The translations under genes were made by a program, and so were the position numbers. Below, piece by piece: positions 9,797 through 57,747 of a DNA stretch of 64,000 nt. Source of the DNA: Magallana gigas. Taxonomy: Eukaryota. The DNA lies in NCBI RefSeq assembly GCF_963853765.1, contig NC_088855.1:36338205-36402204 (forward strand). Direction: 5' to 3'. The notes beneath the pieces were generated by a model. That model ran no database searches, was not told the origin of the DNA, and worked only from the letters and a program-made list of their open reading frames with translations. How positions within the stretch are numbered: position 1 is the stretch's first letter; each line of letters starts with the position of its first letter.

Positions 9797-10069
9797 GACA
9801 GTTTTGTTTTTGGCGCCAAATTATAGTTTGTCGTTCTCGAAGGGAATAAATAATTCCGAAAAAAATGCTTACTTTGAATTTTGAATTTTTCTCCAACATT
9901 CTTATTATTGAATTTTTTCTTCAAAATTTGATCCGTAAAAAAGTTTTGAACATGAAAATACTGTGATTTTATTGGACTAGTTAGCTTATGTAAATTTTCA
10001 TAAGATAATTACTGAATACAGATGTTTGTGAATATATAGTGTCCTATCTTCTATACAAAACTGAGCTGA

Positions 10070-10450
10070 ACAGTTTCACAGTTTACATTGTAAATAAAGA
10101 TTATTGACAAATAAACTATATTTAAAGATTTGTTTACTGTATATTTGATTTGTAAAAACAAACTAAAATGTTGTAAACTATAGTTTGTGGTTAACGTAAG
10201 TAATGGATTTTGCTGCTAAATATATAGATTAAACACTGTTAAATTTACATCTGCAAAGTATAATTTTACATTCGTCAACTATAGTTAAAAGATGTTGTTA
10301 ATCTTTGTTTCTCAAACCATAAAATTATATTTATCAGATTTGCTATCAAATTAACTATGTTTTACAGATGTGAAATGTAGATTAATGTTGCTTACTAAAT
10401 TACTATAGTTTTCACTCTGTAAACTATAGTTTATTGCACATAAACCTGGA
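10070..10450. repeat. Satellite-like array built on 'aactatagtt(a/t)ac' motifs, flanking the foldback element
   Basis: Repeated 'ctatagtt' cores every ~30-50 bp. Related to the array at 62130-62620. Confidence 0.55.
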
Positions 10451-10516
10451 TAGTTTAAAGACTGTAAAACAATATTTTTATTAAATAGTTCTTTTTGTGA
10501 AGTTTATCTGCCATAC

Positions 10517-12012
10517 TACGAAAGCCCATTGAGCTCATTTTCGTAGGTAAAAAAAAATATTTTTTTCGCGAATAAACGCGAAACTTTCGCGATATAACGC
10601 GTTAGTTTTGCAAATAAACGCGAAACTTTCGCGATATAACGCGAAACTTTCGTGAATAAACGCGTAACTTTCGCGAATAAACGCGAAACTTTCGCGAATA
10701 AATGCGTAACATTCGCTAATAAACGCGAAACTTTCGCGATATAACGCGTAATTTTCGCGATATAACGCGAAACTTTCGCGAATAAACGCGTTAGTTTCGC
10801 GAATAAACGCGTAAGTTTCGCGAATTAACGCGAAACTATTATATAAATATTGTCATTTCATACAGAACACATATGAAGAAAAACGATAGAAAACAAACAC
10901 ATTTTAAGTTTTAATATAATAAAATACTTATTATTCATTATCATTATAATATCCGTGTTACGTTGATTTCTGAAGACAAAATTATCTTTTTTGCATATAG
11001 ATATGAATAAATCTGATAAAACTTTATCATTACATTTTTATATGTTATATGTCCAAAGTAGATAATAAGTTTGAGCATCATATTACGATTTTCAGTTGTT
11101 CGCCGACCCTGTGTTCGAACAGGCATTCATTGATGATCTTTTTCTTATAAAATTGATATAAATTTAACCGCCACAAATCTTTTAAATCTTAGTATTAATT
11201 TTTAAATGAAATATGTGATAAATTTGGAGGACGAATTTACGTCATCTAGATTTGAACAAAAGCTTGAAAATTTCAATTCACAGCTTGACTTATCTCTCTG
11301 ATATAAAACTAGACGTTAAGTTATGTTGCAGCGATAGAATATATATTATAACCTTTTAAACAATGATATCCTTTAAATTCTAAAATGATACCTAATGAAA
11401 CGTTTAATTCGAATTAAAATTGTTATAATTAAAATATGTTGCTGCCTCATTTTCAATAATACAGCGCCCATTAGAATGTGAGAAGCGCGATGCATTATAT
11501 GTTCTTTGAAAATCAGTACTAAGATTTTAAAGATTTCCTACGTTTGAATTTATGTTAATTTGTATAAGGTTAAATCTAATTCATTTACATCTTTATATAA
11601 TATTATTTTGTTTTATTTAAATTAATATATTTGTTTTCAGTAATTATTCTTCATAGGGTTTCTTCTATGAAATAACAATATTTATATTTAAGTTTCGCGT
11701 TTAATCGCGAAAGTTTCGCGTTTATTCGCGAAAGTTTCGCGTTTTTTCGCGGTTTTTTTCGCGAAACTAACGCGTTATATCGCGAAAGTTACGCGTTATA
11801 TCGCGAAAGTTTCGCGTTTATTCGCGAAACTAACGCGTTATATCGCGAAAGTTTCGCGTTTATTCTCGAAAGTTACGCGTTATATCGCGAAAGTTTCGCG
11901 TTTATTCGCGAAAGTAACGCGTTTATTTGCTAAACTTACGCGTTTAATCGCGAAAGTTTCGCGTTTTTTCGCGAAAAAAATAATTTTTTTACCTACGAAA
12001 ATGAGCTCAATG
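10517..12012. mobile_element. Foldback-like non-autonomous element with ~330-bp inverted terminal arms
   Basis: Left arm 10517-10840 and right arm 11690-12012 are inverted complements. Each arm begins 'tacgaaagcccattgagctcattttcgtaggt' and consists of ~20-bp tandem subrepeats (cgcgaaactttcgcgaataaa). The ~850-bp AT-rich centre has no significant ORF. Confidence 0.7.

Positions 12013-28970: not shown

Positions 28971-29024
<54 letters not shown>
28971..29024. repeat. (CT)n microsatellite
   Basis: Direct observation. Confidence 0.95.
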
Positions 29025-29323
29025 ATTTCTTCCATTAATGAAACAAAGATTGGAAAAGATTGGAAAAGAATGAAAAATACCATGCAACAATTTTCAGTCT
29101 TAATCTTGTCAGCGCAACTGACTCATCTTATCCCCTCATCAGGATTTCATAAAATTTGAAGTTATTAAGGACATATATAATTAATGTACATATTGGGACT
29201 TCATATGGGAGTTATGCCCCTTTTATTTAAAATGGGGGAAAATTTGTGAATTTGCTATATCTTTTCTTTCGAAAGAAATTTACATTTACATCTGTTACAT
29301 GTTTTTTTCTTCTTTTCAGGATC

Positions 29324-30442
29324 ATGTCAAGATTAAAGAAAACTTGCGTCCTGTTAGTTGTAGGTTTTTATCTTGGCTACATGTTCACATCTAGGACTTA
29401 TGAAGACACGGTGGATAGACTGAAACAAACTGTGGCGTTATATCTGCGGCGAACAGAGGCCGTTTTCAACAATGTAACCGCTTACCACAACAATTCATCG
29501 CCCTATCGCACCATGATATCAAATAAAAAAAATAACCACTTCACTTTAAGTCAGCTATCGCACAGAGCACAAGGCAGCGATGGTTGGAATTTAGTATTTA
29601 GCAGGAATCGGACGATATGGAAGGTCCAGCCTAGTATGTGCAGCAGAAATACCACTGGATTCTATCGCTCCAAACTCAGAACAAATGTTGGCTCGACGGC
29701 CATTTATATATATGACCCGAGGAAGGATATATGGGTTAGCAGGGAAATCATCAGGTATGGAAGTTGGGAGGGAAAACATATAAATCTTATACTGTCCTTA
29801 CTACAGCAGGATCCAGATCTACACTTTGTAGACATTGGTTCCAACGTGGGTGTGTTTACTTTAGCGGTCGCCCTGCTTGGGCGACGTGTGCTAGCGGTAG
29901 ACGCCCTCGCGATGAACATCATGCGACTGTGCTCCTCTGTGATTGAAGGTAACTTTACCGATAGTGTTCAAATTGTGTACAATGCATTTTCTGATGTCTA
30001 TGAAACAGTATCACTCGGAATGGATGAAAATAACGTTGGAGGCACGTTTGTGGCTAAGGATAAAAATACCAACAAAGTGATCGGAAGTAGGGTCGTTGGG
30101 AATTATGGAACCGTTCAAACAATACGATTAAACGATGTTTTATCTTTACCTAGATTTGACTTTAGAAAAGTGATAATGAAGATTGATGTTGAAGGCTATG
30201 AAAACAAAGTTTTCAAAGGCGGCGAAACATTTTTCGATAAAGTCGATGTACGGGCAGTTCTTATGGAGTGGCAGTGGCTTAAAACCGGAAACGCTGGGCA
30301 AGAAATTATCAATTTCATGTTACTTAAAAATATGGAACCGCATGTTCCCGAACAAAACCCTCGGCCATTAAAAACTCAGGACCGTGGCAATTGGCCCAAT
30401 GATATTTTATGGAGGAAAAAACCTTTAATAAAAACGAGATGA
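29324..30442 (+). CDS. FkbM-family (Methyltransf_21-like) SAM-dependent methyltransferase, type II membrane topology, single coding exon (paralog 1)
   Basis: 372-aa ORF from ATG 29324, the M of MSRLKK. It has a short basic N-tail followed by a hydrophobic anchor TCVLLVVGFYLGYMF. Motif I 'FVDIGSNVGVFTLAV' and 'IDVEGYENKVFKGG' match the FkbM pattern. It is paralogous to the 31903 and 39557 ORFs. The upstream part of the track ORF (29246-29323) lies behind a splice-acceptor-like ttttcag|g at 29318. Confidence 0.8.
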   Translation: MSRLKKTCVLLVVGFYLGYMFTSRTYEDTVDRLKQTVALYLRRTEAVFNNVTAYHNNSSPYRTMISNKKNNHFTLSQLSHRAQGSDGWNLVFSRNRTIWKVQPSMCSRNTTGFYRSKLRTNVGSTAIYIYDPRKDIWVSREIIRYGSWEGKHINLILSLLQQDPDLHFVDIGSNVGVFTLAVALLGRRVLAVDALAMNIMRLCSSVIEGNFTDSVQIVYNAFSDVYETVSLGMDENNVGGTFVAKDKNTNKVIGSRVVGNYGTVQTIRLNDVLSLPRFDFRKVIMKIDVEGYENKVFKGGETFFDKVDVRAVLMEWQWLKTGNAGQEIINFMLLKNMEPHVPEQNPRPLKTQDRGNWPNDILWRKKPLIKTR

Positions 30443-31902
30443 TCCATTTTATTGTTCTTTTTGATAGGATTTTGATTTTGGATTATAATCAGGGAAAGTA
30501 GTATTAAAATACTTAGAAAATAAGAGGTTAAGCGCATTTTCCCATTATTTCGCCTACACTCGTGTTTGAACGGAAAGTAACTGTTACTATAAATAAATAC
30601 AGCTGTCGCAATATGATTTTCGAAACATAGGTATTTATTATATAATGGTGTATGTAATCATTGCTTTGTTATAAATTCAGGAAACCTTCATCGAGAAATA
30701 AAGTCATTTGATATCTGAACCGTGATAACTTCCGGCATTATGCAGTGAATGTATTAGTGTAAATACTAGTAGTGTATTTATGGTGTCAGTGAAGAGATCT
30801 ATTTATATTGGATATGCGTATACTAAGAATTAAACAAGAAAATTTGAAGGAAAAATCCAGCAGATTTAATCACTCTATTCTTATTATGCTTTAAGTGAAA
30901 AGAAAAAAATATTAATCGATCAAGCGACCGCAAAATAAAAAAGACCTAGGCATTACCACTTGGCCACTGATAAAACACTAAAGAATGCCTTTTTGATATT
31001 TGTGCGTATATACATGATTGTATTGGAAAAGCTACTAATTTATTGAAATATATGCGTAGTTTTCAGTACAAAGACCAAGTTGAACCAAAAATAAATTCAA
31101 TGTAAAAGTGTACTACAAAACCTGTAGAGCAAAATTTTAGTTGGATATCTTTGGTTCAAATAGTCAAAAATCCACCTGTAAACTATTTTCCTATATATCA
31201 TTAACAATACCTGATTATTTTAATGATGTCGTATACAATACTAGGGCTCCTTTCAAATGGTAAATGTGTAATTTTCCTTTTTGAAAAAAATATACTTTAA
31301 CTAAATGTTGTACATCATATTCAAAATGCCTGATGTTTGCAAAAGCGCTACATATTGAAGGCGTGCAGTAGTGCCTCCTTCCTCCTCTTATTTGATTACA
31401 CATAAGATATCGGACACTAAAAAAACACGATTTTACTGTATACATTTGGTACGATTAGAGACGATACCAATCAAAATCAGGATCAAGGAAATACCTTTGT
31501 TCTTCCGATTATTTGCTAAAGTTATTTCAGCTAGACAGCCGGAAACCACGTGGTTTTCTTTATCGGCAGAGATAACGTATACCCTACATAGCAAAGAGCG
31601 GCACACATGTCTATATTCGGTAAGATCACATGTTTTCTATGTACCGGTTACCCCGAAAAAGCCTGTCTCTCAGCATAAACGACACCAATTTTCTGTAAAT
31701 CTTTTTGTAAGACTTTTAATTGTGATTGCATTAAATATATGATCGTTTGACTTTCTTATGGCCAGTCGATGAATTGTCGAACGGTGTTGATAAGGCTTCG
31801 TTACACGTGGAGCATATCTATGTTGTCGGGCAGGTGAGACTCCTTGCAGTACTGTAGATTTATCAGAATACGTTTTGTTTACATTTACAGAACGCACCCA
31901 CG

Positions 31903-32910
31903 ATGAAATTCAACTTGGCCGTCAAAATCGGCTGCTTGGGGTTCTGTTGCTTCATCGTGGGATGGATGCTCGCTATCCAGCAATGTCCTCACGCACAGAG
32001 ACTCTTTCCGATGTTTGATCCGGTATTTAAAAACACAGAGGCTCCGATAACGACGAAAAAACCGGTGTCTCAGGAATACTTTATTTATCACAGAGATGAA
32101 ACTAAATGGAATCCATGCAATATAACATGCAAAGATACATCAAAGTTTTTGAAAACAACTTTACACACAAGTGCTGGAGACACGCCTATTTTCGTTTACT
32201 CTTCCACTGAAGATAAACATGTAAGTGGAAGTTTAATACGAGATGGAAGATGGGAGCCTCAATTTGTTGATCTTATTTCTAACCTTCTTAAAGAAGATCC
32301 TGATCTCCACTTCATAGATCTCGGTACCAATATAGGGGTTTTTGCTTTATCCATAGCAAAGATGAATAGACAGGTCATAGCAGTGGACGCTTTAGCTATG
32401 AATGTGGAGAGATTGTGTGCTTCCATCAATGCGGGAAACTTTACAAAGAACATAAAACTGGTGCATAATGCTTTGTCAGATGTCCGAGAAGTGGTAAGTC
32501 TTGGTAAAGATAAAGGAAACGTTGGTGGAACATTTGTTGCCAAAGACAAGAATCCGAATAAAGTTAGAGGAAGTGACGTCGGGGGCAGCTACGGGTCCGT
32601 GCAGACGGCGATGCTTGACGACATCTTGGAACTTCCGGGATTTTCGGTGAAAAAAGCTGTTATGAAAATAGACGTAGAAGGGTACGAGAATAGAGTGTTT
32701 AAGAGTGGCAATAAATTCTTTGAACGTGTCGATGTGACAGCGGTGCTCATGGAGTGGATGTGGCTAAAAACCGGCCCTGCAGGCCAAGAAATCGTTGAAT
32801 TTTTTAAACGTCATAATTATGAAGCAACTGTTCCTACGGACAGGCGTGTTTTGCCTATTAATCAGCGAGAATTTTGGCCAAATGATGTATTATGGCGCAA
32901 AAAAGTTTGA
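31903..32910 (+). CDS. FkbM-family SAM-dependent methyltransferase, type II membrane topology, single coding exon (paralog 2)
   Basis: 335-aa ORF. N-terminal anchor 'LAVKIGCLGFCCFIVGWMLAI'. Motifs 'FIDLGTNIGVFALSI', 'VAKDKNPNKVRGS', 'IDVEGYENRVFKSG', 'VLMEWMWLKTGPAGQEI'. It is preceded by a 57-nt intron-like segment (31834-31888, gtgagac...tttacag) ending 14 nt before the ATG. Confidence 0.8.
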   Translation: MKFNLAVKIGCLGFCCFIVGWMLAIQQCPHAQRLFPMFDPVFKNTEAPITTKKPVSQEYFIYHRDETKWNPCNITCKDTSKFLKTTLHTSAGDTPIFVYSSTEDKHVSGSLIRDGRWEPQFVDLISNLLKEDPDLHFIDLGTNIGVFALSIAKMNRQVIAVDALAMNVERLCASINAGNFTKNIKLVHNALSDVREVVSLGKDKGNVGGTFVAKDKNPNKVRGSDVGGSYGSVQTAMLDDILELPGFSVKKAVMKIDVEGYENRVFKSGNKFFERVDVTAVLMEWMWLKTGPAGQEIVEFFKRHNYEATVPTDRRVLPINQREFWPNDVLWRKKV

Positions 32911-33769
32911 TAGACTTGTCTTTAGGGTCTTTCACATTCCCTTACGCCGAAGGTTCTGTTGTTTAAGTTAAGTTTATTGACTTTTTTTTGGAAAAGCAGC
33001 TTAATTACCTGTGGTTATATCTCGTCAAGACTATCACTTGACATAACTTCTCTAAATAACCAAGCTTGAGATTGTAAATATTTGTTTTTGATTTACAACC
33101 ACATTGTAGTATTAAACGATCACCAAGTTAAGCACCAAATTTTTGGGCAACAGTTAATAGGTATAAAACCAAGAACATGGAATATTTGTTTTTGGATAAA
33201 CTTGATAAAGATATTATGCATATAGAATACTTGGGTTCTGGTTCCATATATATTTACCATCGCATTTTTGTCAACAAACGAGCCATAATTCAAGTCATCG
33301 AGAACGCGTTGACCCAAAGATTAGAAGTTCAAGTTCTCTTCCATTAGATATTGGTGCAATGAATAATGCTAGTCAAATCAGATACTGTGTAAGCGTGTTT
33401 TTAAATTTTACTTTAAACTTTAAAAAAGTTGGTGCTGTGGTTGATTTTTTGACACAAACCCAATGTTGCAAATATGTTGACAATTTCATTAGAATCGGAA
33501 GTTCTCTGTTATTTCAGCTTTTTGTCGACGTAAATGGCCGAGTTTGTTATTAATTAAGCTGCTGGATTTAGGCTGCAGTGTGTTTAACTTACCTCAAATG
33601 TATTTGTCAGTATGATATTAACAATAGAAAATAATCACAGCAGACGACATCAGCAATTTAAAGAGGGATCAGAGTTAGTTGCAATGCAGGCATCTGATTT
33701 TCAGCAATCCGAACTAATAGCATCAGTGTTATATATGAGACAGATCTCAGTGGGAATAGGTGTTAAACC

Positions 33770-34000
33770 CAACGACCGCTGGTTCAAGTCCTGTTGTGGT
33801 CCCTTGATGCTGTGTGTTGTGCACTTACACAAGGCACTTTTTCTACATTGGCTCAGTCCACCCAGCTGAAATTGGGGAACGGCTTACGCCGGGAGTTAAC
33901 CTGCGAAGGACTGGTGTCCCATCCAGGGGGAATCGGTGACTCTCACCCATCCGCTTTGCTTAACGGAAACCGACCCGGGGTGTAAGCAGCGACCTTTTGA
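33770..34000 (+). mobile_element. Possible SINE-like element
   Basis: tRNA T-arm-like 'ggttcaagtcctg' followed by a GC-richer body ('ccacccagctgaaattggggaacggcttacgccgggagttaacctgcgaagg') that is atypical for the surrounding AT-rich DNA. Confidence 0.3.
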
Positions 34001-35496
34001 GTCTTTATGTCAGAGAATGATTTAACCAACTTATTATGTACCATAGTTTTAAAGTTTTAAGCACATTGGGTTGAAGTATGATTATTTTTTTTTATCATAT
34101 ACTGTAACATGGTTGGTACATGTACATTTACAAGTGCGTGTGTTTATAAATTATTTTAAGCATGGCCATGAAATTGTAAGTGTTTTAAGGTTATGAGTAA
34201 TGTTAAGAGTTTTACGAATTTTATTGTTTTGCAGTTGTTCAATGGTAGCTCATGACAATTTTTACATGAATGTTTAGTAAAACGATTTACAATTCTACTT
34301 AATCAATAATTTGTAAGCTACTTAATTTATATATATTGGAACAATCATGTTTTCCAAATAAGTAGATCTTAGTTTATGAAAAATTATAAGTGCATTATAT
34401 ATCGGTGAACGCGAATCTGGTTCTGATTCATTATGAGACTACATTCAGAGCGGACAAAAGTTTTAGTTATCATATTTTATCACAAGGTCTAAGACGTAGG
34501 AAATATTTTACGTGAAATGTAAATAACTATTTTATTTATAATCTGTGAGCGTTTAAAAATCGGGATTCAATTCTATATTCAGTAACAAGCTTATCTGTTT
34601 ATTTTTTTAATTGAATCATTTTTACATAAATATAAATGTGGAAAAAGAGAGTATAATACTCGATTCCGGATTTGACGCACAATTGTCAAGACTTATATAC
34701 TATATATGTATCTTGTAGTTGAAAAGAAGACTTATGTTGGGCTTTTCTTTTATAAAACAATATTTCCCAAAACTCCCTTTTAACGATGTTTAGAGGGTTT
34801 ATATTAATTGAAGTATTTTGGCGTTCGCCAACTATAACGTACAATTAACGTGAAATTAGCTTTCAAAAGTGTTCTGACTAATAAAGAATAAACCCACGTT
34901 CATATTTTAACTTATTTTTTCAAAAATTTTGTTATTTAAAACGATTCGTTCGAACTCCGAGCGTATGGAAGACAAAACCATATATTTAGGTTTGTTTTTC
35001 CTAATTCCTTTTTTCTTCTTTCCTGTCGCATACGCTTTGCATGTTCTGTAAAACTCAACAAAAATTATTTTTTATTCACACCAACTGTTCCAAATCTGTA
35101 GAAAAAAAGACACCGATTTGTGGGTGTATTTTGGTGTTAGCTTTATTTATAACTTTTAAAAAAAAAGAATTGTCTTGTATTATAAACATTTGACACAGTC
35201 AATAAATCTCCATTCTTGTATTACTTGGGTCGAATAAACCCTCTACATAAATGTACGTTTTTGTATTTTGTAGATCAAATTTAATAAATGTTTACTTTTT
35301 TGAGATAAAAAAAGTAGCGAGGGTATTCTTTGAGTAAATAAAAAACAAAAAAACCCAGAGAAATCAATCTATTCTGAATTTATTGAAAGTGACTGAAATT
35401 AAAATAAAATTGTATAAACACTTTAAGATTCAAATTTTATTTTCTCTCAATCTGATTAAAATTAGACTCGTAAAACCGTTCCTATACAGTACACTA

Positions 35497-36462
35497 GGCT
35501 ATAAGCGTATCGTAAAGGAGCGCTATAAGAGTATTGTAAAGGAGCGCTATAAGTGTATCGTAAAGGAGCTCTATAAGTGTATCGTAAAGGAGTGCTATAA
35601 GTGTATCGTAAAGAAGCACTATAAATATATCGTAAAGGAGCGCTATAAGCGTATCGTAAAGGAGTGCTATAAGCGTATCGTAAAGGAGTGCTATAAACGT
35701 ACCGTAAAGGAGTGATATAAGCGTACCGTAAAGAAGCGCTATAAGCGTATCGTAAAGGAGCATTATAAGTGTATCGTAAAGGAGCGCTATAAGTGTATCG
35801 TAAAGAAGCACTATTAGTGTATCATAAAGGAGCGCTCTAAGTGTATCGTGAAGGAGTGCTATAAGCGTATCGTAAAGGAGCGCTATTAGCGTATCGTAAA
35901 GGAGCGCTATGAGCGTATCGTAAAGGAGTGCTATAAGAGTATCGTAAAGGAGTGCTATAAGTGTATCGTAAAGGAAAGCTATAAGCGTATCGTAAAGGAG
36001 CGCTATAAGCCTATCGTAAAGGAGTGCTATGAGCGTATCGTAAAGGAGTGCTGTAAGAGTATCGTAAAGGAGCGCTATAAGTGTATCGTAAAGAAGCACT
36101 ATAAATGTATCGTAAATGAGCTCTATAAGCGTATCATAAAGGAGTGCTATAAGCGTTTCGTAAAGGAGCACTATAAATATATCGTAAAGGAGCGCTATTA
36201 GCGTATCGTAAAGGAGCGCTATAAGCGTATAGTAAAGGAGCATTGTAAGTGTATCGTAAAGGAGCGCTATAAGTGTATCGTAAAGATGCACTATTAATGT
36301 ATCGTAAAGGAGCGGTACAAGTGTATCGTAAAGGAGTGCTAAAAGCAAATCGTAAAGGAGCGCTATAAGCGTATCGTAAAGGAGCATTATAAGTGTATCG
36401 TAAAGGAGCGCTATAAGTGTATCGTAAAGGAGTGCTATAAGCGTATTGTAATTAAAGGAGCG
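35497..36462. repeat. 24-bp minisatellite, ~40 tandem copies (consensus gtatcgtaaaggagcgctataagc)
   Basis: Directly visible periodicity. It creates the artefactual 328-aa 'LIALLYDT'n ORF on the minus strand. Confidence 0.95.
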
Positions 36463-37278
36463 CTCATTTGTTCTTTCCACACCATTTTAACATATGGTAC
36501 ATGAGAACAATGATGCAATATTACAATGTACAATGTTCATGTGCATGATGCAATGCTACAATGTACATGTACATATTAATTGCCAGTCAGTTTTTTCAGT
36601 TATGTGCCAATTATAAACTGTTAGATTCATAAACTCTGCTTACCAACTCAGGAAAAAATAATACTAGTATTCAAAAGTGAATGTGTTAAAATATTGTATA
36701 TCAGAAATGTAACTTATCAATGTTAAGAGTTAATGTTATATAAATTTGAATCATTCATGCATTAACGATTCAAGTTGCAGTTGTATATATGAAGTGACTT
36801 AAAGGTCCAAGGGGCCGGGTGCAAATTACGATTTTTCTAGACATATACTATGTATTACATATCGTATAGGCACAACGTAACTATAATAAACAATTAGTTA
36901 CATACTTACTGTGTCAAAAAGGCAGTTTATAAAATTAGTGAAGCAACTGCACAATTTACTAACACCCAACTTATAGCTTCTCCTCATTTATACAAAAGTT
37001 TGACCTGCTTTCTAACTGTTTGGTTTTTATTTTAATAAAACTTGATATTGATAAGTTTAGTCGAAACTTCTGGCCCACAAACCATAATGATATTGGACAA
37101 CTGTTAATACCTACTCATTCCAAATCTAGACTTTCTGAAATAAAATAAAATCCGTTATTAACAAAGTAAAAAAAAGGACATGTATATGGATAACCTGTTA
37201 GACGGAGAAAAATCAAAGAAATAAAATGTCATGTAATTCACCCTATGGACCCTAAACTGTTGAAATTTATCACTGTGT

Positions 37279-37301
37279 CCCCCCCCCCCCCCCCCCCCCC
37301 C
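37279..37301. repeat. Poly-C homopolymer (~23 nt)
   Basis: Direct observation. Confidence 0.95.
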
Positions 37302-37708
37302 ATTGTCTTCACAAAATGTTTAAGAATTGTGCATTTTAGGTAAATATATTAAGAATTATTTTGTCATCAGAAAACTCCATGTATAAACTGAAGGTTCTTT
37401 TTCCGTTTACAATTATATTAATGTTAATATCAATTCTCATGTGTATGGCTGTGAGCTGTATAGCTGTTGACCAATAAACAATACAATACAATAATGCAAT
37501 TTTTTTCCAAAAGAAAGGTAGAAAAAATATATTTGAAAAAGGAAGGACGTTTCACTTTGGAAGGATGTAAAGAATGATAATAATTGCAGACTTTGTTACC
37601 TCCCGGAAGAGATATTTACTTTCAATTTTAAAATATTTGTTTGGGTTTATTAAATAATATCTTTCGACAAGAAAAACAAATATGCAAAATGTTTATATGA
37701 ACCGGACT

Positions 37709-37851
<143 letters not shown>

Positions 37852-38400
37852 CTGTGACACTGGTTTAACATTAGTTATTTAGTTTGGTGAGAGTTATTTC
37901 TCTTTTTACAGAGTAATCGTACCCGAAAGTGATATTGACAAAGTCAAGTTGACAAACCAGGAAAGCCATTCAAATGGAAAATTTCGTAAGTAAGCATGGT
38001 AATTTAACACTCTAACAAGAAATCAAACTGAAATTCTTAACTACTTTTTACATAGGCTCAAGTATAAGGGCTTTTTGATAAACGAATGTTGTCTTTAAAA
38101 CACTTGAAAATAATTATATTTTTAATTTCATTGAGTGTATACTCTAAACGTTATTTCAAAATCACACAAGCAAAAAGTGAAATGAAAAGGTATAGATTTT
38201 AGAATGATATAATAAGATAACTCTTCAGAAAAGTTCAAGATACAAAATGCCTGGCTTCTCATGTTATCAGGCATTTTAATTTGGTTCATTTCATTTTCAT
38301 TGTTACCTAGCAATGCGCATTTATAAACAGATAAATGATTCAATGTTGTTTATTTACTGAAAACCTTAAAATCAGCTATCAAAAATTCATGTTCTTCTTT

Positions 38401-38565
38401 ATTGTGTAAATTACACAAGAGGATTGGAAACAAGTTCTCGCAACTTACATGTTCCTCTCCTAATGATAATATATACTATGACAACTGTATATATTATCAT
38501 TAGGAGATTGATATGCAAGTTGCAAGAACTTGTTTCCAATCCTCTTGTGTAATTTACACAATAAA
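38401..38565. repeat. Long imperfect palindrome (arms ~75 bp, 12-bp spacer)
   Basis: 'attgtgtaaattacacaagaggattggaaacaagttctcgcaactt...' mirrored by '...aagttgcaagaacttgtttccaatcctcttgtgtaatttacacaat'. Confidence 0.8.
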
Positions 38566-39556
38566 ATATGTTCAAATCAAATCATGTTCTTCTCTTTTCA
38601 TTTCATGATGGATATCTATTACATCAGGAAATTGATATAAATCAATTCTACGATTTGATGAAGACTTTATTCGATTTTTTTTTTATAGATCTATATATTA
38701 CCAGATTACGATTGAATAATTCTTAAGAAAATTAACACACACAACACATTTACGGGTTAAGGTTTTTCGAAAAGTAAAAAACCAAGCAGTGTAATGATTT
38801 TACACTTATATTTAAAATTGAATAGGATTCAGCAGCAGGCAACAACCTATTCTAACCCTCTCTCTCTAAAAAATGTTGAGTAGGGCTTCCAAAATAAGTA
38901 AAAACAATTCACAAATACCATCAGACTAGAAAGAAAAAAAAAATCGATAGAAATTGAATTGTTCACACTTGGAAAGTTGTTGATAGCAAATACAACTAGC
39001 TGGCATCTAATTGCTACACAACAGGTAGATATACCTATTGATATAATCCCCGCTATTGTTTGGCACAATGGGACTGTACATAGAAAAGAGCGCATGGGTC
39101 AATAATAATTAACGGAGAATGCTTTAAAGGGTATACCGGCAGAAGGTTTGAGAGATTGGTCAACGAGGGTTAATATATAATCAAGTCGGAGCATGACTGG
39201 GGGTTTAAATCCATTTTAACCCTGTAGGATTATTAGTCGATGTAAGTGACCTTGTGTTTAGTTTAGTTTCTTTTGTGATCAAGTGTTCTTCATTAATACA
39301 CTTGTCTTCTTTCAAAAAGAAGCGTCCGGAAATGCCATCATTGGAAGGAAAAATCTATGTATCCTATTTTACATTAACAAGGAAGTGGATATTTTCACAC
39401 TTAATCTCTTCAGCATTTTAACTATGAAATCGTTGTGTCGTGTGTCTATTCAATTATGTTTCAATTCGGATTAAGTCGATTGGGAAATCTAATCAATTCT
39501 AAGTTAAAACTGCAACTTATTAGGTCAGTTAATTAGTTACTTGAAGCTTCTATAGA

Positions 39557-40762
39557 ATGGAATTGGATAAATTCTGGAAAGCCTTTTTGATGATTTGTGC
39601 TTTTACATTTGGATGGTTTTTGTGCAATATTGAAAAGGAGACTAATATTAATGTGTTACACCACGGTCAGACGATATTGAATGCTGGAATCCGAATATTC
39701 AAAGGAGGGACATCTGAAGAAACTAAGCAAAATTTAAATACAAGCATTTCAAAATTAAGATTAAGTACCAGTGTCCCAAATACTGAAAAAGGTGTTGGAA
39801 CTTCATTTAAAGGAAATCGAAACGGGAGTTTTTCAACTGAAAAACCTGTCGCCCAGAAAATCAAAGCAGCGATTAGAAATTCTACCCAAAACTCTCTAAT
39901 AACAAAGGCTATCACAACACCAGCTCCACAAATACTTCGATTGTACGCAAGGAACGCTCAGCAATGGACCAAGGACGATCACACTTGTAAAGCTCTGCCT
40001 AAATTTATGCAGGCTGTTCTTCGAACTTCGGCTGGGTCACTCCCAATCTTCATTCATAACCCAAAGGATGACATTCACGTTAGTAATAGTATTCACAAAC
40101 ATGGTTCCTGGGAAGGGGGTTACATAGAACTAGTCCTAACCTTTCTTAGACAAGATCTAGACTTGCAGTTCTTAGATCTTGGTGCCAATCTCGGTGTATA
40201 TTCAATGGCGGTGGCTAAATTCGGCAGGAAAGTCGTATCAGTTGATGCTTTATCTATAAACATTCAGCGCATGTGTGCAACAGTACAAACAAATCGTTTT
40301 GATAATGTGCAGTTAGTATATAATGCTCTGTCTGATGTCCGTGAAGTTGTGTCCCTTGGAGTAGATAAAGGCAATATTGGAGGGACGTTTGTGGCAAAAG
40401 ACAAAAACCCAAACAAAGTCAGAGGAAGTCGTGTTTCCGGTAGCTATGGCGATGTTCAAACTGCAACTCTAGACGACCTCCTCGAACTTCCGGGTTTTGA
40501 TTTGAAAAAAGTAATTATAAAAATGGACGTGGAAGGATATGAGAACAGGGTGTTTCGAGGAGGACAGAAGTTCTTCAAAAACGTCGACGTTAGAGCTGTG
40601 TTAATGGAATGGATGTGGCTCAAAACGGGTCCGGCGGGCCAGGAAATCATTGATTTCTTAAGTCGGCATGGATTCACACCGACCCGACCGGTACTAGCCC
40701 GGCAGCCATTACCTCTGAACCAGAGACTCTCGTGGCCAAACGATGTCTTATGGAGAAGATGA
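39557..40762 (+). CDS. FkbM-family SAM-dependent methyltransferase, type II membrane topology, single coding exon (paralog 3)
   Basis: 401-aa ORF. Anchor 'FLMICAFTFGWFLC'. Long Ser/Thr/Lys-rich stem. Catalytic domain 'FLDLGANLGVYSMAV...IKMDVEGYENRVFRGG...VLMEWMWLKTGPAGQEI' is about 65% identical to paralog 2. Confidence 0.8.
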   Translation: MELDKFWKAFLMICAFTFGWFLCNIEKETNINVLHHGQTILNAGIRIFKGGTSEETKQNLNTSISKLRLSTSVPNTEKGVGTSFKGNRNGSFSTEKPVAQKIKAAIRNSTQNSLITKAITTPAPQILRLYARNAQQWTKDDHTCKALPKFMQAVLRTSAGSLPIFIHNPKDDIHVSNSIHKHGSWEGGYIELVLTFLRQDLDLQFLDLGANLGVYSMAVAKFGRKVVSVDALSINIQRMCATVQTNRFDNVQLVYNALSDVREVVSLGVDKGNIGGTFVAKDKNPNKVRGSRVSGSYGDVQTATLDDLLELPGFDLKKVIIKMDVEGYENRVFRGGQKFFKNVDVRAVLMEWMWLKTGPAGQEIIDFLSRHGFTPTRPVLARQPLPLNQRLSWPNDVLWRR

Positions 40763-45048: not shown

Positions 45049-46086
<1,038 letters not shown>

Positions 46087-48178: not shown

Positions 48179-50161
48179 GTGCACCGGAACCGGGATGACT
48201 ATATAGACTTTTCCTTCATTTCATTATTTAATTTGTATATTTTTGTTTGTTTGGTTTTGTTTGGTCTTCTCGGTAATCTAAAGCCTGGAAAATCCCACGG
48301 TGAAGATGGAATTTTGAACGAATATTTTATTGAATTTCAAGACTATTTTATACCTATACTACATAATCTTTTTAATTGTATATTAAATACTGGTATTTTT
48401 CCCAGTACGTGGTCTTCCTCAATAATTATTCCAGTGTTTAAAAAGGGTGATTCTACAGACCCTAACAACTACAGGGGTATAAGTCTTGTTAGTAATATGT
48501 GTAAGTTATTTACTTCAATTTTAAACAAAAGGTTATTGGAATGGTCAAAATATAATGATGTTATAACGGATGCACAATTTGGTTTTAAACCAAGCTGTGG
48601 AACACGTGATGCTATTTTTGCTTTACATTCTATTATTAGTAACAGTCTATGTAAAAAGAAGAGGTTATATTGTGCGTTCATCGATTTTAAAAAAGCGTTT
48701 GATTCTATTGATAGACGACTTTTGTGGCTTAAACTTTCAAAGGTTGGCATTGAAGGAAAATTATTGTCAGTTATTAAAGCGTTATATCGTCATGTGAAAT
48801 CCTGTATTGGTGTTGATGGATTTTTGAGTGAATATTTTTGTAATAACCTAGGATTAATGCAGGGCGAAGTGTTATCACCTATTTTATTCAATTTATATGT
48901 CAACGATTTCGAAAATAGCTTTTTAAATGCCGGTTGTTTGTCTTACGAGTTATCTTCCCTAAATCTGTTTCTTTTAATGTACGCTGATGATATGGCCCTG
49001 TTCTCTGAATCTGTGGAAGGTTTACAATGTCTTTTGAATGAACTACATAGCTATTGTAATACTTGGAAAATGCATGTTAATGCGGAAAAGTCAAAAATTG
49101 TGGTTTTTAGAAACAATGGCAGAGTAAAAGATAGTGAGTGTTGGCATATTGGTAATGATGTTTTAGAAATTGTACAACAATTCACTTACTTAGGAATACT
49201 TTTCAACTTTAACAACAAGTTTACCAAAGCTGAAAAACAATTATCTGAACAAGGTAGAAAAGCATTGTTTGCGCTTAGAAAGAATATACGGGGAATGTCA
49301 TTTAATATAGAAACATTATTGTCGCTTTTTGATTGTTTTATTGGTGGAATTGTTAATTACTGTTCAGAAATATGGGGAAATAATATAGGTTGCAATATCG
49401 AGAAACTTCATACAGACTTCTGTAAACAAATTCTCGGAGTGAAGAAAAGTACAAATACTGCTTACTTATATGCTGAATTAGGCCGTGTGCCCCTTGTACA
49501 TTATAGAATGTTTAACATTATTAAGTTTTGGAAAAATGTCTTAATTAGTGACAATTGTATAATTAGACATTGCTACGAAGTTATGTATATTAATTGTGAA
49601 GAACACGGTTATAAAAACTGGGTTTTCTATGTAAAGAAAATTCTCATTGACCTCGGTTTTTTTGATATATGGTCTAACCAAAAAATAAACAATGGTATTT
49701 TACAACTTGTAAAACAAAGAATTTTTGATCAGGCAAAACAAGATAATTTTGCAAATGTTGAAAATTCAAAGAAATGTTCTTTTTACAAATATCTTATCGA
49801 TGGTATACATCTTCAATACTATTTAAGAAAATCTATTCCCATTAAATTACAGAAATATATAACTAAATTACGACTATCGTCACATCGCCTGGCTATTGAA
49901 ACTGGTAGATATAATAACACAAATAGAGAAAATAGATTTTGTCCACATTGCAAATCTAGTGTTGAAGATGAATTCCATTTTTTATTTGTTTGTCCTCTAT
50001 ACAGAACATTGCGCAGATTATACATGAAAGAATATTATTATAAAAAACCTTGTATGTTTAAATTAATTCAACTTTTTAATACTGACAATGTCAAAGATCT
50101 CTGTAATCTTGGCAAATTCATCTCAAAAAGTATGTTATTAAGGGACAACTGTATTACATAA
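48179..50161 (+). mobile_element. 5'-truncated non-LTR (LINE) retrotransposon, reverse-transcriptase ORF
   Basis: 660-aa ORF with RT motifs: N-terminal 'GKSHGEDGI' (GPDGI-like), 'FIDFKKAFDSIDR', 'QGEVLSPILFNLY', 'LMYADDMALF' (YADD). Also a C-terminal Cys/His motif 'CPHCKSSVEDEFHFLFVCPLY'. No endonuclease domain upstream. AATAAA-like tail near 50296. Confidence 0.85.
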
Positions 50162-51694: not shown

Positions 51695-52723
<1,029 letters not shown>

Positions 52724-56345: not shown

Positions 56346-56745
56346 AGATAATGAATTTGTTTGTTATACTTAGTAATTTCTGCAAGTATTTCATCATTAT
56401 CCTAAGATACACAAAATATAAACGCTAGAGAAGACACTGTACAGATAAATGTAAAACTGTTAACATCCATATGATTTGTTCTCGAATTCTTAAATTTTGT
56501 AAAATAATTTTAGTTGCTGATGTGACAGTACGTAGTATTAATCAATTTATAATTGAAATATGTTTATAACATATGCAAAAATTGTTATTATTATTGTTTT
56601 TCAAACACAGGGAAAGTCTCTAGAGCCCAAAAAGTAATTCGTAATTTTACTAACTTATATGGGGGAATTGTACACCAACAAAGTTTGTTTTCCCTTACTT
56701 TATCTTGGTTTAATCGCATTTTTTTTAATGTTGGTTACATTTCAG

Positions 56746-57747
56746 GGAAACATGGTTGGTATGGAGTTCAAGGACACGTATGTTGGAGATGAGGCCGAGG
56801 TTAAGAGAGGAATTCTCACACTTAGACCCCCCAGAGAACATGGCATCATCACCAATTGGGACGACATGGAGAAGATCTGGCACCACACCTTCTACAACGA
56901 ACTCCGTGTGGCCCCGGAAGAACACCCTGTTCTACTGACCGAGGCTCCGCTCAACCCAAAGGCAAACAGGGAAAAGATGACACAAATCATGTTCGAAACC
57001 TTCAATTCCCCTTCCATGTACGTTGCTGTTCAGGCCGTACTGTCTCTGTATACTTCCGGTCGTACAACTGGATTTGTACTCGATTCCGGAAACGATGTCA
57101 CCCACTCAGTGCCTATTTACGAGGGCCATTCCTTTCCCCACGCCGTTTTGAAACTTGATCTCGCTGGACGTCATCTTACCGATTATCTCGGGAAATTACT
57201 TACCGAACGAAGATATTCTTTCACAACCACTGCTGAAAGAAAAATCGTCTGTGACATCAAAGAAAAATTGTGCTACGTCGCCCTTGACTATGAAAAGGAG
57301 ATGTCATCCTCAATGACATCTTCTCTGGAAAAAAGTTATGAACTTCCAGATGGCCAGGTTATCACCATTGGCAACGAGCGGTTCAGATGTCCTGAGACTC
57401 TTTTTAAGCCATCCATGTATGGAGTGATGAATTCCAATATCCATGAACACATAAACAACAGTATCATGAAATGTGATGTGGATATCCATGAAGACATGTT
57501 CTCTAACATTGTGTTATCTGGAGGTTCAACCATGTTTCCAGGTATAGCCGATCGTATGCAGAAAGAAATCACAGCACTTGCTCCAAGCTCTATTAAAGTC
57601 AAAATCATTGCTCCACCCGAGAGGAAATACTCCGCCTGGATTGGAGGATCCATCCTGGGTTCTCTCTCCACTTTCGAAGATATGTGGATCAGCAAAGAGG
57701 AATACGATGAAAATGGTCCCTGCATTGTTCACAAGAAGTGCTTCTAA
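56746..57747 (+). CDS. Divergent actin-like C exon 2 ([40 protein letters not shown]...CIVHKKCF*)
   Basis: Acceptor catttcag. Roughly 75-80% identical to canonical actin, with a divergent D-loop and subdomain 4. Confidence 0.85.

What the first reader, a model, noticed from the sequence alone, without database searches (positions are those of the whole stretch)
29324..40762. Tandem array of three FkbM-family methyltransferase genes with type II membrane topology and a single coding exon: candidate uncharacterised glycan O-methylation system, possibly of horizontal origin
Three paralogous ORFs lie head-to-tail on the + strand (372, 335 and 401 aa). Each has a short cytoplasmic N-tail, one hydrophobic signal anchor, a variable stem (Ser/Thr/Lys-rich in paralog 3) and a C-terminal domain carrying the FkbM-family signatures. 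These include glycine-rich motif I 'DIGSNVGVF / DLGTNIGVF / DLGANLGVY', 'VAKDKNxNKV', 'IDVEGYENxVF' and 'VLMEWxWLKTG'. FkbM-family enzymes are classically bacterial O-methyltransferases acting on sugars and polyketides. The anchor-stem-catalytic layout is the hallmark of Golgi glycan-modifying enzymes. Every other protein gene in this window is intron-rich, yet each of these three is a single coding exon. At least two are nonetheless preceded by a short spliceosomal intron ending just 5' of the ATG (acceptor ttttcag at 29318; 57-nt gtgagac...tttacag at 31834-31888). This argues they are bona fide host genes, not contamination, and is the pattern expected for an anciently acquired bacterial or retro-copied gene that later expanded by tandem duplication. 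Methylated sugars such as 3-O-Me-Man and 3/4-O-Me-Gal are abundant on glycans of some invertebrates, and the responsible transferases are poorly defined. This cluster is a concrete candidate.
Basis: partly seen in the sequence, partly recalled or inferred. Interest (0 to 1): 0.85.

Follow-up and report, generated by a model that had tools for sequence, protein, structure and literature searches.

The report
Oyster membrane-anchored FkbM methyltransferase gene trio
Three neighbouring Pacific oyster genes encode membrane-anchored enzymes that look built to add methyl groups inside the secretory pathway, which makes them reasonable but untested candidates for the still-unidentified enzymes that methylate oyster sugar chains; the proposed bacterial origin is not supported.

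Summary
The window is Crassostrea (Magallana) gigas. Three head-to-tail + strand ORFs (372, 335 and 401 aa) each pass the curated cut-offs for the FkbM methyltransferase family. Each has an N-terminal hydrophobic anchor, a fast-evolving stem and a strongly constrained catalytic domain (dN/dS about 0.06). All SAM-binding and catalytic motifs are intact. Two co-varying cysteines suggest a disulfide, and hence a luminal location.

The genes are already in databases as "uncharacterized" or "FkbM domain-containing" proteins. The triplication dates to the oyster stem lineage. The wider subfamily spans molluscs, a nemertean and a rotifer, and has a single coding exon in all except the rotifer.

Horizontal origin is not supported. 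Bacteria, giant viruses and protists are all equally distant (22-32% identity), no donor stands out, and FkbM domains are reported in other animals.

Glycan O-methylation is the best-supported function but is inferred only. C. gigas N-glycans carry several regiospecific O-methyl sugars, and I found no paper that names an animal enzyme for them. No transcript evidence was obtainable. The 5'UTR intron of paralog 2 is supported by conservation in Saccostrea. The claim that all other genes in the window are intron-rich is wrong, because four actin genes downstream are almost single-exon. This is a solid, moderately interesting lead.

The parts
29306..29319 (+). Putative 3' splice acceptor (T-rich tract plus CAG) ending 4 nt before the p1 ATG
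   Evidence: Read directly from the sequence. Not verified by transcripts or by orthologue comparison.
29324..30442 (+). Paralog 1 (p1) coding exon, 372 aa plus stop; FkbM-family methyltransferase
   Evidence: ORF. PF05050 E 2.2e-11 and TIGR01444 E 5e-14. The 90%-identity cluster holds XP_052718012.1 of C. angulata. The unbiased allele comparison gives pN/pS 0.06-0.32.
29342..29389 (+). p1 N-terminal hydrophobic segment (residues about 7-22, after MSRLKK): signal anchor or uncleaved signal
   Evidence: Kyte-Doolittle 15-mer maximum of 1.99 at residue 8; sequence.
29594..30421 (+). p1 catalytic domain (residues about 91-366) with motif I DIGSNVG, VLAVD, NAFSD, KIDVEGYE and LMEW
   Evidence: tblastn paralog matches; motif positions.
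31803..31833 (+). Putative non-coding first exon segment of p2, containing a CACGTG E-box and ending at the donor CAG|GT
   Evidence: The ACACGTGG...GTTGYCGRGCA segment is conserved between C. gigas and Saccostrea echinata upstream of the p2 orthologue.
31834..31890 (+). Putative 57-nt 5'UTR intron of p2 (GTGAGA...TTTACAG)
   Evidence: Sequence. The acceptor ACAG lies exactly 12 nt before the ATG in both C. gigas and Saccostrea, and the interior is divergent. No transcript evidence.
31903..32910 (+). Paralog 2 (p2) coding exon, 335 aa plus stop; identical to XP_011448615.2 'uncharacterized protein LOC105343112 [Crassostrea gigas]'
   Evidence: dN/dS against the Saccostrea orthologue is 0.083 overall, 0.059 in the catalytic domain and 0.215 in the anchor plus stem.
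31918..31977 (+). p2 signal anchor (residues about 6-25, AVKIGCLGFCCFIVGWMLAI)
   Evidence: KD19 of 2.12 at residue 7 and KD15 of 2.39.
32080..32904 (+). p2 catalytic domain (residues about 60-334)
39557..40762 (+). Paralog 3 (p3) coding exon, 401 aa plus stop; its 90%-identity cluster holds UniProt K1QRE5 'Methyltransferase FkbM domain-containing protein', Magallana gigas
   Evidence: AlphaFold model with pLDDT 80 overall and above 90 in the domain. dN/dS against the Saccostrea and Ostrea orthologues is about 0.07 overall and 0.24-0.32 in the anchor plus stem.
39572..39628 (+). p3 signal anchor (residues about 6-24, FWKAFLMICAFTFGWFLCN)
   Evidence: The AlphaFold model has a helix at 2-29. 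KD15 of 2.12 at residue 9.
39698..39919 (+). p3 disordered Ser/Thr/Lys/Asn-rich stem (residues about 48-121) with three N-x-S/T sequons
   Evidence: pLDDT below 50 at 48-73 and 75-121. Sequons at residues 61, 89 and 108.
39941..40759 (+). p3 catalytic domain (residues about 129-401): motif I DLGANLG (207), D230, NALSD (256), KMDVEGYE (322), LMEW (349), and Cys144/Cys240

Best explanation
The region is a tandem trio of ancient paralogues. They arose by triplication in the oyster stem lineage and belong to a Spiralia-wide family of secretory-pathway, N-terminally anchored, FkbM-type SAM-dependent methyltransferases.

Shown here:
- Family membership and a class I methyltransferase fold.
- Intact SAM-binding and catalytic motifs.
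- Strong purifying selection on the catalytic domain, with a fast-evolving stem.
- An N-terminal hydrophobic anchor.
- A co-varying cysteine pair.

Inferred:
- The short N-tail stays in the cytosol and the hydrophobic segment anchors the protein in Golgi membranes. The disordered, N-glycosylated stem holds the catalytic domain in the lumen.
- SAM is imported into the lumen by a Golgi SAM transporter of the kind that samt-1 is thought to encode in C. elegans.
- In the lumen the enzyme transfers a methyl group to a hydroxyl of a terminal sugar (GalNAc, Fuc, Man or Gal) on N-glycans, O-glycans or glycolipids.
- The three paralogues, together with further family members elsewhere in the genome, would each supply a different acceptor or position specificity.

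The evolutionary origin of the family (ancient transfer or vertical descent) is unresolved.
For: Family and fold:
- PF05050 and TIGR01444 hits above the curated cut-offs for all three proteins.

Active-site conservation:
- Across 111 divergent family representatives: motif I D/G/G in 111/111, an acidic residue at position 230 in 111/111, K322 in 110, D324 in 109, E326 in 107, E329 in 111 and E351 in 110.
- All of these are present in p1, p2 and p3.

Selection:
- Catalytic dN/dS is about 0.06, against 0.2-0.55 for the anchor plus stem.

Topology:
- A hydrophobic segment starts near residue 8-11 in all three proteins, and 93 of 111 relatives have one.
- The AlphaFold model has a helix at 2-29 followed by a disordered stem.
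- N-x-S/T sequons are concentrated in the stem.
- Cys144 and Cys240 co-vary: 49 members have both, 58 have neither and 4 are mixed. This is as expected for a disulfide in an oxidising compartment.

Biological need:
- C. gigas N-glycans carry 3-O-Me-GalNAc, 3-O-Me-Fuc, 3-O- and 4-O-Me-Man and 3-O-Me-Gal, while O. edulis makes 4-O-Me-Fuc. The authors call this 'an exquisitely specific methylation process' and name no enzyme (PMC10301044).
- The glycan methyltransferases of C. elegans 'remain to be identified' (PMC7614267).
- Nothing newer turned up in the searches.

Family precedent for sugar substrates:
- FkbM-family genes lie in bacterial O-antigen clusters and flagellin-glycan islands, and one beside algal glycan genes (PMC10888714, PMC4875605, PMC5082852).

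Age and orthology:
- There are three clean orthogroups across Crassostrea and Saccostrea, two of them also with Ostrea.
- Saccostrea keeps p2 upstream of p3 on the same strand.
Against: - There is no expression or localisation evidence. Every public contig recovered was genomic.
- The FkbM prototype methylates a polyketide rather than a sugar, so family membership does not fix the substrate class.
- The p1 hydrophobic segment is short (about 15-16 residues) and could be a cleaved signal peptide. That would give a secreted enzyme rather than a Golgi-resident one.
- The cysteine co-variation is not corrected for shared ancestry.
- The family has many paralogues, so nothing singles out these three for any particular methylation.
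Confidence: 0.55

Rival explanations
1. Same enzymes and same topology, but the substrate is not a glycan. They would methylate a secreted or luminal small molecule, a lipid or a protein, for example a defence metabolite, a pigment or toxin, or a shell-matrix or mucus component.
For: The founding member, FkbM, is a polyketide O-methyltransferase (family description; PMC12085832). Fold searches do not discriminate between substrates. An FkbM-domain gene is listed among the immune-responsive genes of a clam challenged with Vibrio (PMC9125321), which would also fit a defence-metabolite role.
Against: The anchor-stem-catalytic layout is typical of glycan-modifying Golgi enzymes. Oysters have several unexplained regiospecific sugar methylations that need several enzymes. 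FkbM-family genes are repeatedly associated with glycan loci. No natural-product biosynthetic genes flank the trio; its downstream neighbours are actin genes and a retrotransposon.
Confidence: 0.2
2. On origin: the family entered an early spiralian (or earlier animal) genome by horizontal transfer from a bacterium or a giant virus, gained a signal anchor and UTR introns, and then expanded.
For: The coding region is a single exon in molluscs and a nemertean. The subfamily, as far as named members show, is restricted to Spiralia, with a sharp score gap to everything else. PF05050 is most abundant in prokaryotes: 28,747 representatives at E<=1e-10 against 861 at E<=1e-30.
Against: No donor signal was found. 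The best prokaryotic hits are 22-32% identical, cover the core domain only, and are scattered over cyanobacteria, Bacteroidota, Verrucomicrobiota, Proteobacteria, Patescibacteria and archaea. Giant-virus hits are 20-31% identical. Ichthyosporean and dinoflagellate domains are just as close (83-103 bits), so a eukaryotic ancestry is equally possible. PF05050 genes exist in insects, C. elegans and amphioxus, where the gene has an intron. The rotifer member has an intron inside the catalytic domain. An intronless coding exon is, to my knowledge, common in Golgi enzyme genes. A recent or oyster-specific transfer is excluded by the orthology and age data.
Confidence: 0.3
3. The proteins are catalytically dead and act as type II membrane chaperones or cargo receptors. 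From memory, and not tested here, Drosophila Star is a type II protein whose luminal domain resembles this family.
For: Only the shared type II layout. No tool result supports it.
Against: The SAM-binding motif I, the acidic ribose-binding residue and the K-D-E-G-x-E motif are intact in all three paralogues and in 107-111 of 111 relatives. Catalytic-domain dN/dS is about 0.06.
Confidence: 0.04
4. Bacterial contamination or an assembly artefact.
For: None, beyond the intronless ORFs and a family that is mostly bacterial.
Against: The GC content of about 35% matches the flanks. Oyster actin genes and a retrotransposon lie downstream, and short-exon genes lie upstream, on the same sequence. The same loci are assembled in dozens of independent oyster resequencing samples. 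Orthologues are on chromosomes of C. virginica, Saccostrea and Ostrea, with synteny.
Confidence: 0.01

Closest known systems
FkbM family of SAM-dependent O-methyltransferases (Pfam PF05050 Methyltransf_21; NCBIfam TIGR01444). The prototype is FkbM, the 31-O-methyltransferase of FK506/FK520 biosynthesis in Streptomyces.
   Same: HMM membership above the curated cut-offs, a class I Rossmann fold, motif I DxGxNxG, an acidic residue after strand 2, and the K-x-D-x-E-G-x-E motif.
   Different: The oyster proteins carry an N-terminal membrane anchor and a disordered stem, are eukaryotic nuclear genes, and share only 22-32% identity with prokaryotic members. The prototype's substrate is a polyketide. 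The only FkbM-annotated solved structure found (2py6) is no closer than generic methyltransferases.
Bacterial and algal FkbM-family methyltransferases encoded in glycan loci: O-antigen clusters, flagellin glycosylation islands and the Ostreococcus chromosome 19 glycan genes. From memory, also the Nod-factor fucose 2-O-methyltransferase NoeI.
   Same: The same domain family, with a proposed role in methylating sugars of surface glycans (PMC10888714, PMC4875605, PMC5082852).
   Different: Those enzymes are soluble or cytoplasmic-face enzymes acting before export. Most are assigned from gene context only. The NoeI link is recalled and was not tested here.
Golgi type II glycan-modifying enzymes of animals (glycosyltransferases and carbohydrate sulfotransferases)
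   Same: Short cytosolic tail, a single signal anchor, a variable stem, a luminal catalytic domain, a fast-evolving stem against a conserved domain, tandem paralogue arrays and, to my knowledge, often a single coding exon preceded by 5'UTR introns.
   Different: An unrelated catalytic fold and cofactor: SAM rather than a nucleotide sugar or PAPS. Golgi residence was not shown here.
The samt-1-dependent glycan methylation pathway of C. elegans (putative Golgi SAM transporter; the methyltransferase is unidentified)
   Same: It establishes that animals methylate glycans in the Golgi lumen using imported SAM. It also leaves exactly the enzyme gap these genes could fill (PMC7614267).
   Different: It concerns a different phylum. 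It is not known whether the nematode enzymes belong to this subfamily, and an oyster samt-1 orthologue was not searched for.
Other metazoan PF05050 genes: amphioxus fkbmc, insect and C. elegans FkbM-domain proteins and, from memory, Drosophila Star
   Same: The same Pfam domain occurs in animal nuclear genomes (PMC12905397, PMC4408594, PMC9137885).
   Different: Their relationship to the spiralian subfamily was not tested. None appeared among the named top representatives. The amphioxus gene has introns.

Membership tests
FkbM-family methyltransferase (PF05050 / TIGR01444) | Profile-HMM score above the curated family cut-off | tested here: met
   PF05050 scores 44.6, 42.9 and 58.1 bits against a cut-off of 22.7. 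TIGR01444 scores 53.0, 53.2 and 66.7 bits against 37.7.
FkbM-family methyltransferase (PF05050 / TIGR01444) | Class I (Rossmann-like) SAM-dependent methyltransferase fold | tested here: met
FkbM-family methyltransferase (PF05050 / TIGR01444) | Intact SAM-binding motif I (D-x-G-x-N-x-G), an acidic residue after strand 2, and the K-x-D-x-E-G-x-E motif | tested here: met
   Present in p1, p2 and p3 and in 107-111 of 111 family representatives.
FkbM-family methyltransferase (PF05050 / TIGR01444) | SAM-dependent O-methyl transfer activity | not testable with these tools
   Needs an enzyme assay.
Golgi type II glycan-modifying enzyme (functional class) | Short cytosolic N-tail, a single N-terminal hydrophobic anchor, a stem and a C-terminal luminal domain | tested here: met
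   The KD15 maxima of 1.99-2.39 fall at residues 8-11. In the p3 model, a helix at 2-29 is followed by a disordered stem. The p1 segment is short (about 15-16 residues), so a cleaved signal peptide cannot be excluded. No dedicated TM predictor was available.
Golgi type II glycan-modifying enzyme (functional class) | Signs of exposure to the secretory-pathway lumen (disulfides, N-glycosylation sequons) | tested here: met
   Cys144 and Cys240 co-vary: 49 both, 58 neither, 4 mixed, with no correction for phylogeny. There are 2-6 N-x-S/T sequons per paralogue, mostly in the stem. This evidence is indirect.
Golgi type II glycan-modifying enzyme (functional class) | Golgi localisation and a carbohydrate acceptor | not testable with these tools
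   Needs localisation and activity assays. Fold comparison gives no information on the substrate.
Horizontally acquired gene of bacterial or viral origin | The recipient clade nests within, or is clearly closest to, a specific donor clade | tested here: not met
   The best prokaryotic domains (85-94 bits), viral domains (up to 109) and protist domains (83-103) are all similarly distant from the spiralian profile, against 185-290 bits within Spiralia. The prokaryotic hits span many phyla. The scans were limited by their search patterns and no full phylogeny was built, so ancient transfer is not excluded.
Horizontally acquired gene of bacterial or viral origin | Patchy distribution in the recipient's relatives | tested here: inconclusive
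   Named subfamily members come only from Mollusca, Nemertea and Rotifera. However, only the top 150 of 861 strong hits could be inspected, and PF05050 genes exist in other animal phyla.
Processed retrogene | An intron-containing parent gene, a poly(A) remnant and target-site duplications | tested here: inconclusive
   No intron-containing close paralogue was seen. The intronless coding exon is shared by molluscs and a nemertean, so any retroposition would be too old to have left such marks.

The most novel reading that the evidence does not exclude
These three genes, with their family members elsewhere in the genome, are the long-sought animal glycan O-methyltransferases. Each paralogue sets one acceptor and position specificity, such as GalNAc-3-O, Fuc-3-O or Man-3-O. 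Gene gain and loss between oyster genera would then explain species-specific methylation patterns that modulate the norovirus-binding histo-blood-group antigens of oysters. Relevant differences seen here are that no p2 orthologue was detected in Ostrea edulis and that Saccostrea has an extra p3-like copy. C. gigas makes 3-O-Me-Fuc whereas O. edulis makes 4-O-Me-Fuc.
Probability: 0.2. Interest if true: 0.8.

Novelty: new variant of a known kind. Interest (0 to 1): 0.5.

Why it matters
O-methylated sugars are widespread on mollusc, nematode and planarian glycans. They are targets of innate-immune lectins, and in oysters they decorate the blood-group-like antigens that bind human noroviruses. In the literature I could search, no animal enzyme responsible for them has been identified. 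[quoted passage not shown]

This trio, and the Spiralia-wide family it belongs to, gives concrete and cheaply testable candidates. Each is a single coding exon, which is easy to clone, and each has a clearly delimited luminal domain for soluble expression. If confirmed, they would be the first animal glycan O-methyltransferases and a membrane-anchored eukaryotic version of a family known mainly from bacteria.

If the substrate proves to be something else, the family is still a large, conserved and uncharacterised set of luminal methyltransferases. The horizontal-transfer angle does not add value as it stands.

Tried and rejected
1. Transcript evidence. I fetched 22 public contigs encoding these proteins, hoping some were spliced transcripts. 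All are colinear with the genome. The 398-419 aa variants are prokaryote-style gene calls on resequencing data. L009 and L010, which seemed to share transcript-like ends, merely carry an indel and have no poly(A). The 5'UTR introns therefore remain unverified by RNA.
2. Within-species pN/pS for p2 and p3. This is rejected as circular, because those contigs were retrieved by exact protein identity. Only the p1 values and the between-genus dN/dS are used.
4. Naming distant relatives. The word-indexed searches added few named taxa. The exhaustive search shows only 150 of its 861 strong hits and carries no names. The cluster look-ups named only some of them.
5. The prokaryote scan with alignment A3 failed for lack of a conserved pattern. 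It was repeated with A2.
6. Contamination and recent horizontal transfer were considered and rejected; see the rival explanations.
7. Pseudoenzyme (Star-like) was rejected on motif conservation.
8. No tRNA or Rfam family lies in 28-42 kb, and there is no DNA-level repeat between the paralogue flanks.

Full report
**What is there**

The window is from the Pacific oyster, Crassostrea (Magallana) gigas. Paralog 2 is identical to XP_011448615.2, 'uncharacterized protein LOC105343112 [Crassostrea gigas]'. The 90%-identity cluster of paralog 3 holds UniProt K1QRE5, 'Methyltransferase FkbM domain-containing protein', and that of paralog 1 holds a C. angulata protein.

Three + strand ORFs lie at 29324-30442 (372 aa), 31903-32910 (335 aa) and 39557-40762 (401 aa). 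A tblastn scan finds no other copy or fragment in the 64 kb. All three exceed the curated cut-offs of Pfam PF05050 and NCBIfam TIGR01444.

**Anatomy**

An AlphaFold model of paralog 3, built on a 26-sequence family alignment, shows an N-terminal helix (2-29), a disordered stem (pLDDT below 50 for 48-121) and a confident catalytic domain (125-401, pLDDT mostly above 90).

All three proteins have their strongest hydrophobic segment at residues 8-11. The same is true of 93 of 111 divergent relatives. N-x-S/T sequons cluster mostly in the stems.

Two cysteines (144 and 240 in paralog 3) are invariant among the three paralogues. Across 111 relatives they co-vary almost perfectly: 49 have both, 58 have neither and 4 are mixed. 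That is the pattern expected of a disulfide, and hence of an oxidising luminal or extracellular location. The statistic is not corrected for shared ancestry.

**Are they working enzymes?**

The following residues are present in all three paralogues:
- Motif I (D207, G209, G213).
- The acidic residue after strand 2 (D230).
- The K322-x-D324-x-E326-G-x-E329 motif.
- E351.

Each is also present in 107-111 of 111 family representatives.

Codon comparisons with the Saccostrea and Ostrea orthologues give dN/dS of about 0.06 for the catalytic domain and 0.2-0.55 for the anchor plus stem, with dS near saturation. This is the usual pattern for Golgi type II enzymes and argues against pseudogenes or pseudoenzymes.

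An earlier within-species pN/pS calculation is circular for p2 and p3, because the contigs were chosen by exact protein identity. It is informative only for p1, which gives 0.06 and 0.32.

**Gene structure**

I could obtain no transcript evidence, because every public contig carrying these genes is colinear with the genome.

- Paralog 2: comparison with Saccostrea echinata supports the 57-nt intron. Both species have an ACAG acceptor exactly 12 nt before the ATG, a GT donor after a conserved ACACGTGG...GTTGYCGRGCA segment, and a divergent interior.
- Paralog 1: the T-rich acceptor is plausible but untested.
- Paralog 3: it shows no clear acceptor.

The single coding exon is conserved in Ostrea, Saccostrea, Mytilus, Pecten, Patella and the nemertean Lineus, where gene range equals coding length. 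The rotifer Adineta gene has an intron of about 52 nt inside the catalytic domain.

The upstream 29 kb contains only short ORFs. Downstream there are four tandem actin genes, each with about 90% of its coding sequence in one exon, and a retrotransposon ORF.

**History**

A distance tree resolves three orthogroups (p1, p2, p3), each with Crassostrea and Saccostrea members and two with Ostrea. Together they form an oyster clade next to a Mytilus gene. Saccostrea keeps p2 about 8 kb upstream of p3 on the same strand. The triplication therefore predates the split of these oyster genera.

An exhaustive profile search finds 861 cluster representatives at E<=1e-30 and 28,747 at E<=1e-10. The named members among the best hits are bivalves, gastropods, the nemertean Lineus and the bdelloid rotifer Adineta, and C. 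gigas has further paralogues elsewhere in its genome.

**Horizontal origin**

- The best prokaryotic matches are 22-32% identical over the core domain only. They are scattered across cyanobacteria, Bacteroidota, Verrucomicrobiota, Proteobacteria, Patescibacteria and archaea.
- Giant-virus and phage-contig matches are 20-31% identical.
- Scored against one family profile, spiralian members reach 185-290 bits per domain. The best prokaryotic domains (85-94), viral domains (up to 109), ichthyosporean domains (83-88) and dinoflagellate domains (83-103) are all similarly remote. No donor stands out, and a eukaryotic ancestry is equally possible.
- PF05050 genes are reported in insects, C. elegans and amphioxus, where the gene contains an intron.
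- To my knowledge, a single coding exon behind 5'UTR introns is also typical of many animal Golgi glycosyltransferase and sulfotransferase genes.

A recent or oyster-specific transfer, and contamination, are excluded. An ancient transfer cannot be excluded without a proper phylogeny.

**Function**

The best explanation is that these are luminal, membrane-anchored, SAM-dependent O-methyltransferases acting on glycans. The support is circumstantial but coherent.
- The architecture is that of Golgi glycan-modifying enzymes.
- FkbM-family genes recur in bacterial O-antigen and flagellin-glycan loci, and one lies beside algal glycan genes.
- C. gigas N-glycans carry 3-O-Me-GalNAc, 3-O-Me-Fuc, 3-O- and 4-O-Me-Man and 3-O-Me-Gal, while O. 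edulis makes 4-O-Me-Fuc instead. That implies several regiospecific enzymes (PMC10301044).
- The oyster paper names no enzyme, and a 2023 C. elegans glycomics paper states that such methyltransferases 'remain to be identified'.
- Targeted searches found nothing newer.

The main rival is a non-glycan substrate in the secretory pathway. It cannot be excluded, because the family prototype methylates a polyketide and the fold gives no substrate information.

**Verdict**

The genes are already catalogued as uncharacterised FkbM-domain proteins, so their existence is not new. What is not in the literature I could search is the description of a Spiralia-wide, membrane-anchored subfamily as candidates for glycan O-methylation.

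I rate it a good, testable lead of moderate interest (0.5) rather than the 0.85 first given. The reasons are that the function is wholly inferred, the horizontal-transfer claim does not hold up, and nothing singles out these three from their many paralogues.

Noticed in passing
window 45073-46086, 51698-52723, 56659-57747, 60040-61035 (+ strand): A tandem array of four actin genes, each with a long terminal exon encoding about 330-360 aa. The last two are noticeably divergent ([19 protein letters not shown]... against [19 protein letters not shown]...), and one has an N-terminal hydrophobic extension in its ORF.
   Followed up: no
window 48179-50161 (+ strand): A 660-aa ORF that looks like a non-LTR retrotransposon reverse transcriptase, lying between the first and second actin genes. 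This was judged by eye from the translation and was not run against Pfam.
   Followed up: no
window 35498-36451: A 24-nt minisatellite of about 40 copies (85% matches) in the p2-p3 spacer. It creates spurious long ORFs on both strands (TLIALLYD repeats), and most resequencing contigs break at it (35527).
   Followed up: partly
window 28972-29024 and 37713-37847: (CT)n microsatellites about 300 nt upstream of the p1 ATG and about 1.7 kb upstream of the p3 ATG. It is unclear whether they are promoter-associated GAGA-type elements or chance.
   Followed up: no
window 38398-38476 / 38487-38565: An inverted repeat with 79-nt arms (92% complementary, 10-nt loop) about 1 kb upstream of p3. It looks like a MITE or hairpin, and several resequencing contigs end or fold back here.
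   Followed up: no
window 31804-31811; L024 about 1075-1082: A CACGTG E-box within the conserved putative non-coding first exon or promoter of p2, shared by C. gigas and Saccostrea echinata.
   Followed up: partly
L024:20525-21202 (Saccostrea echinata): A fourth, p3-like FkbM copy (66% identical to p3 residues 127-358) that runs off the end of the locus. It lies about 9 kb downstream of the p3 orthologue, beyond a single-exon B-box gene. The C. gigas window has no counterpart.
   Followed up: partly
L023 (Ostrea edulis p3 locus) and the hit lists: No O. edulis orthologue of p2 was detected among the annotated proteins or within 10 kb upstream of p3, although p1 and p3 orthologues exist. This may be a lineage-specific loss. 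It is interesting because O. edulis methylates fucose at C4 whereas C. gigas does so at C3.
   Followed up: partly
L026:2865-3818 and 10001-10954 (Lineus longissimus): The nemertean also has a same-strand tandem pair of single-exon family members, followed by a single-exon TRIM-NHL gene. The Saccostrea locus likewise has a single-exon B-box gene downstream. This is probably coincidence among expanded gene families.
   Followed up: no
P0139 (Chromosphaera perkinsii), P0201/P0304 (Effrenium voratum), P0129 (unnamed): Protist proteins with 3-5 tandem FkbM domains in one polypeptide, each scoring 70-103 bits against the mollusc profile. They show that related domains exist in an ichthyosporean and in dinoflagellates.
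   Followed up: partly
P0125-P0128, P0172 (exhaustive-search representatives): Several very high-scoring hits are gene models with two or three family domains. P0172 has a cytochrome-P450-like N-terminal part ahead of the FkbM domain. I read these as neighbouring genes fused by gene prediction, which would mean tandem arrays of this family are common and often mis-annotated. The source genomes and the fusions were not checked.
   Followed up: no
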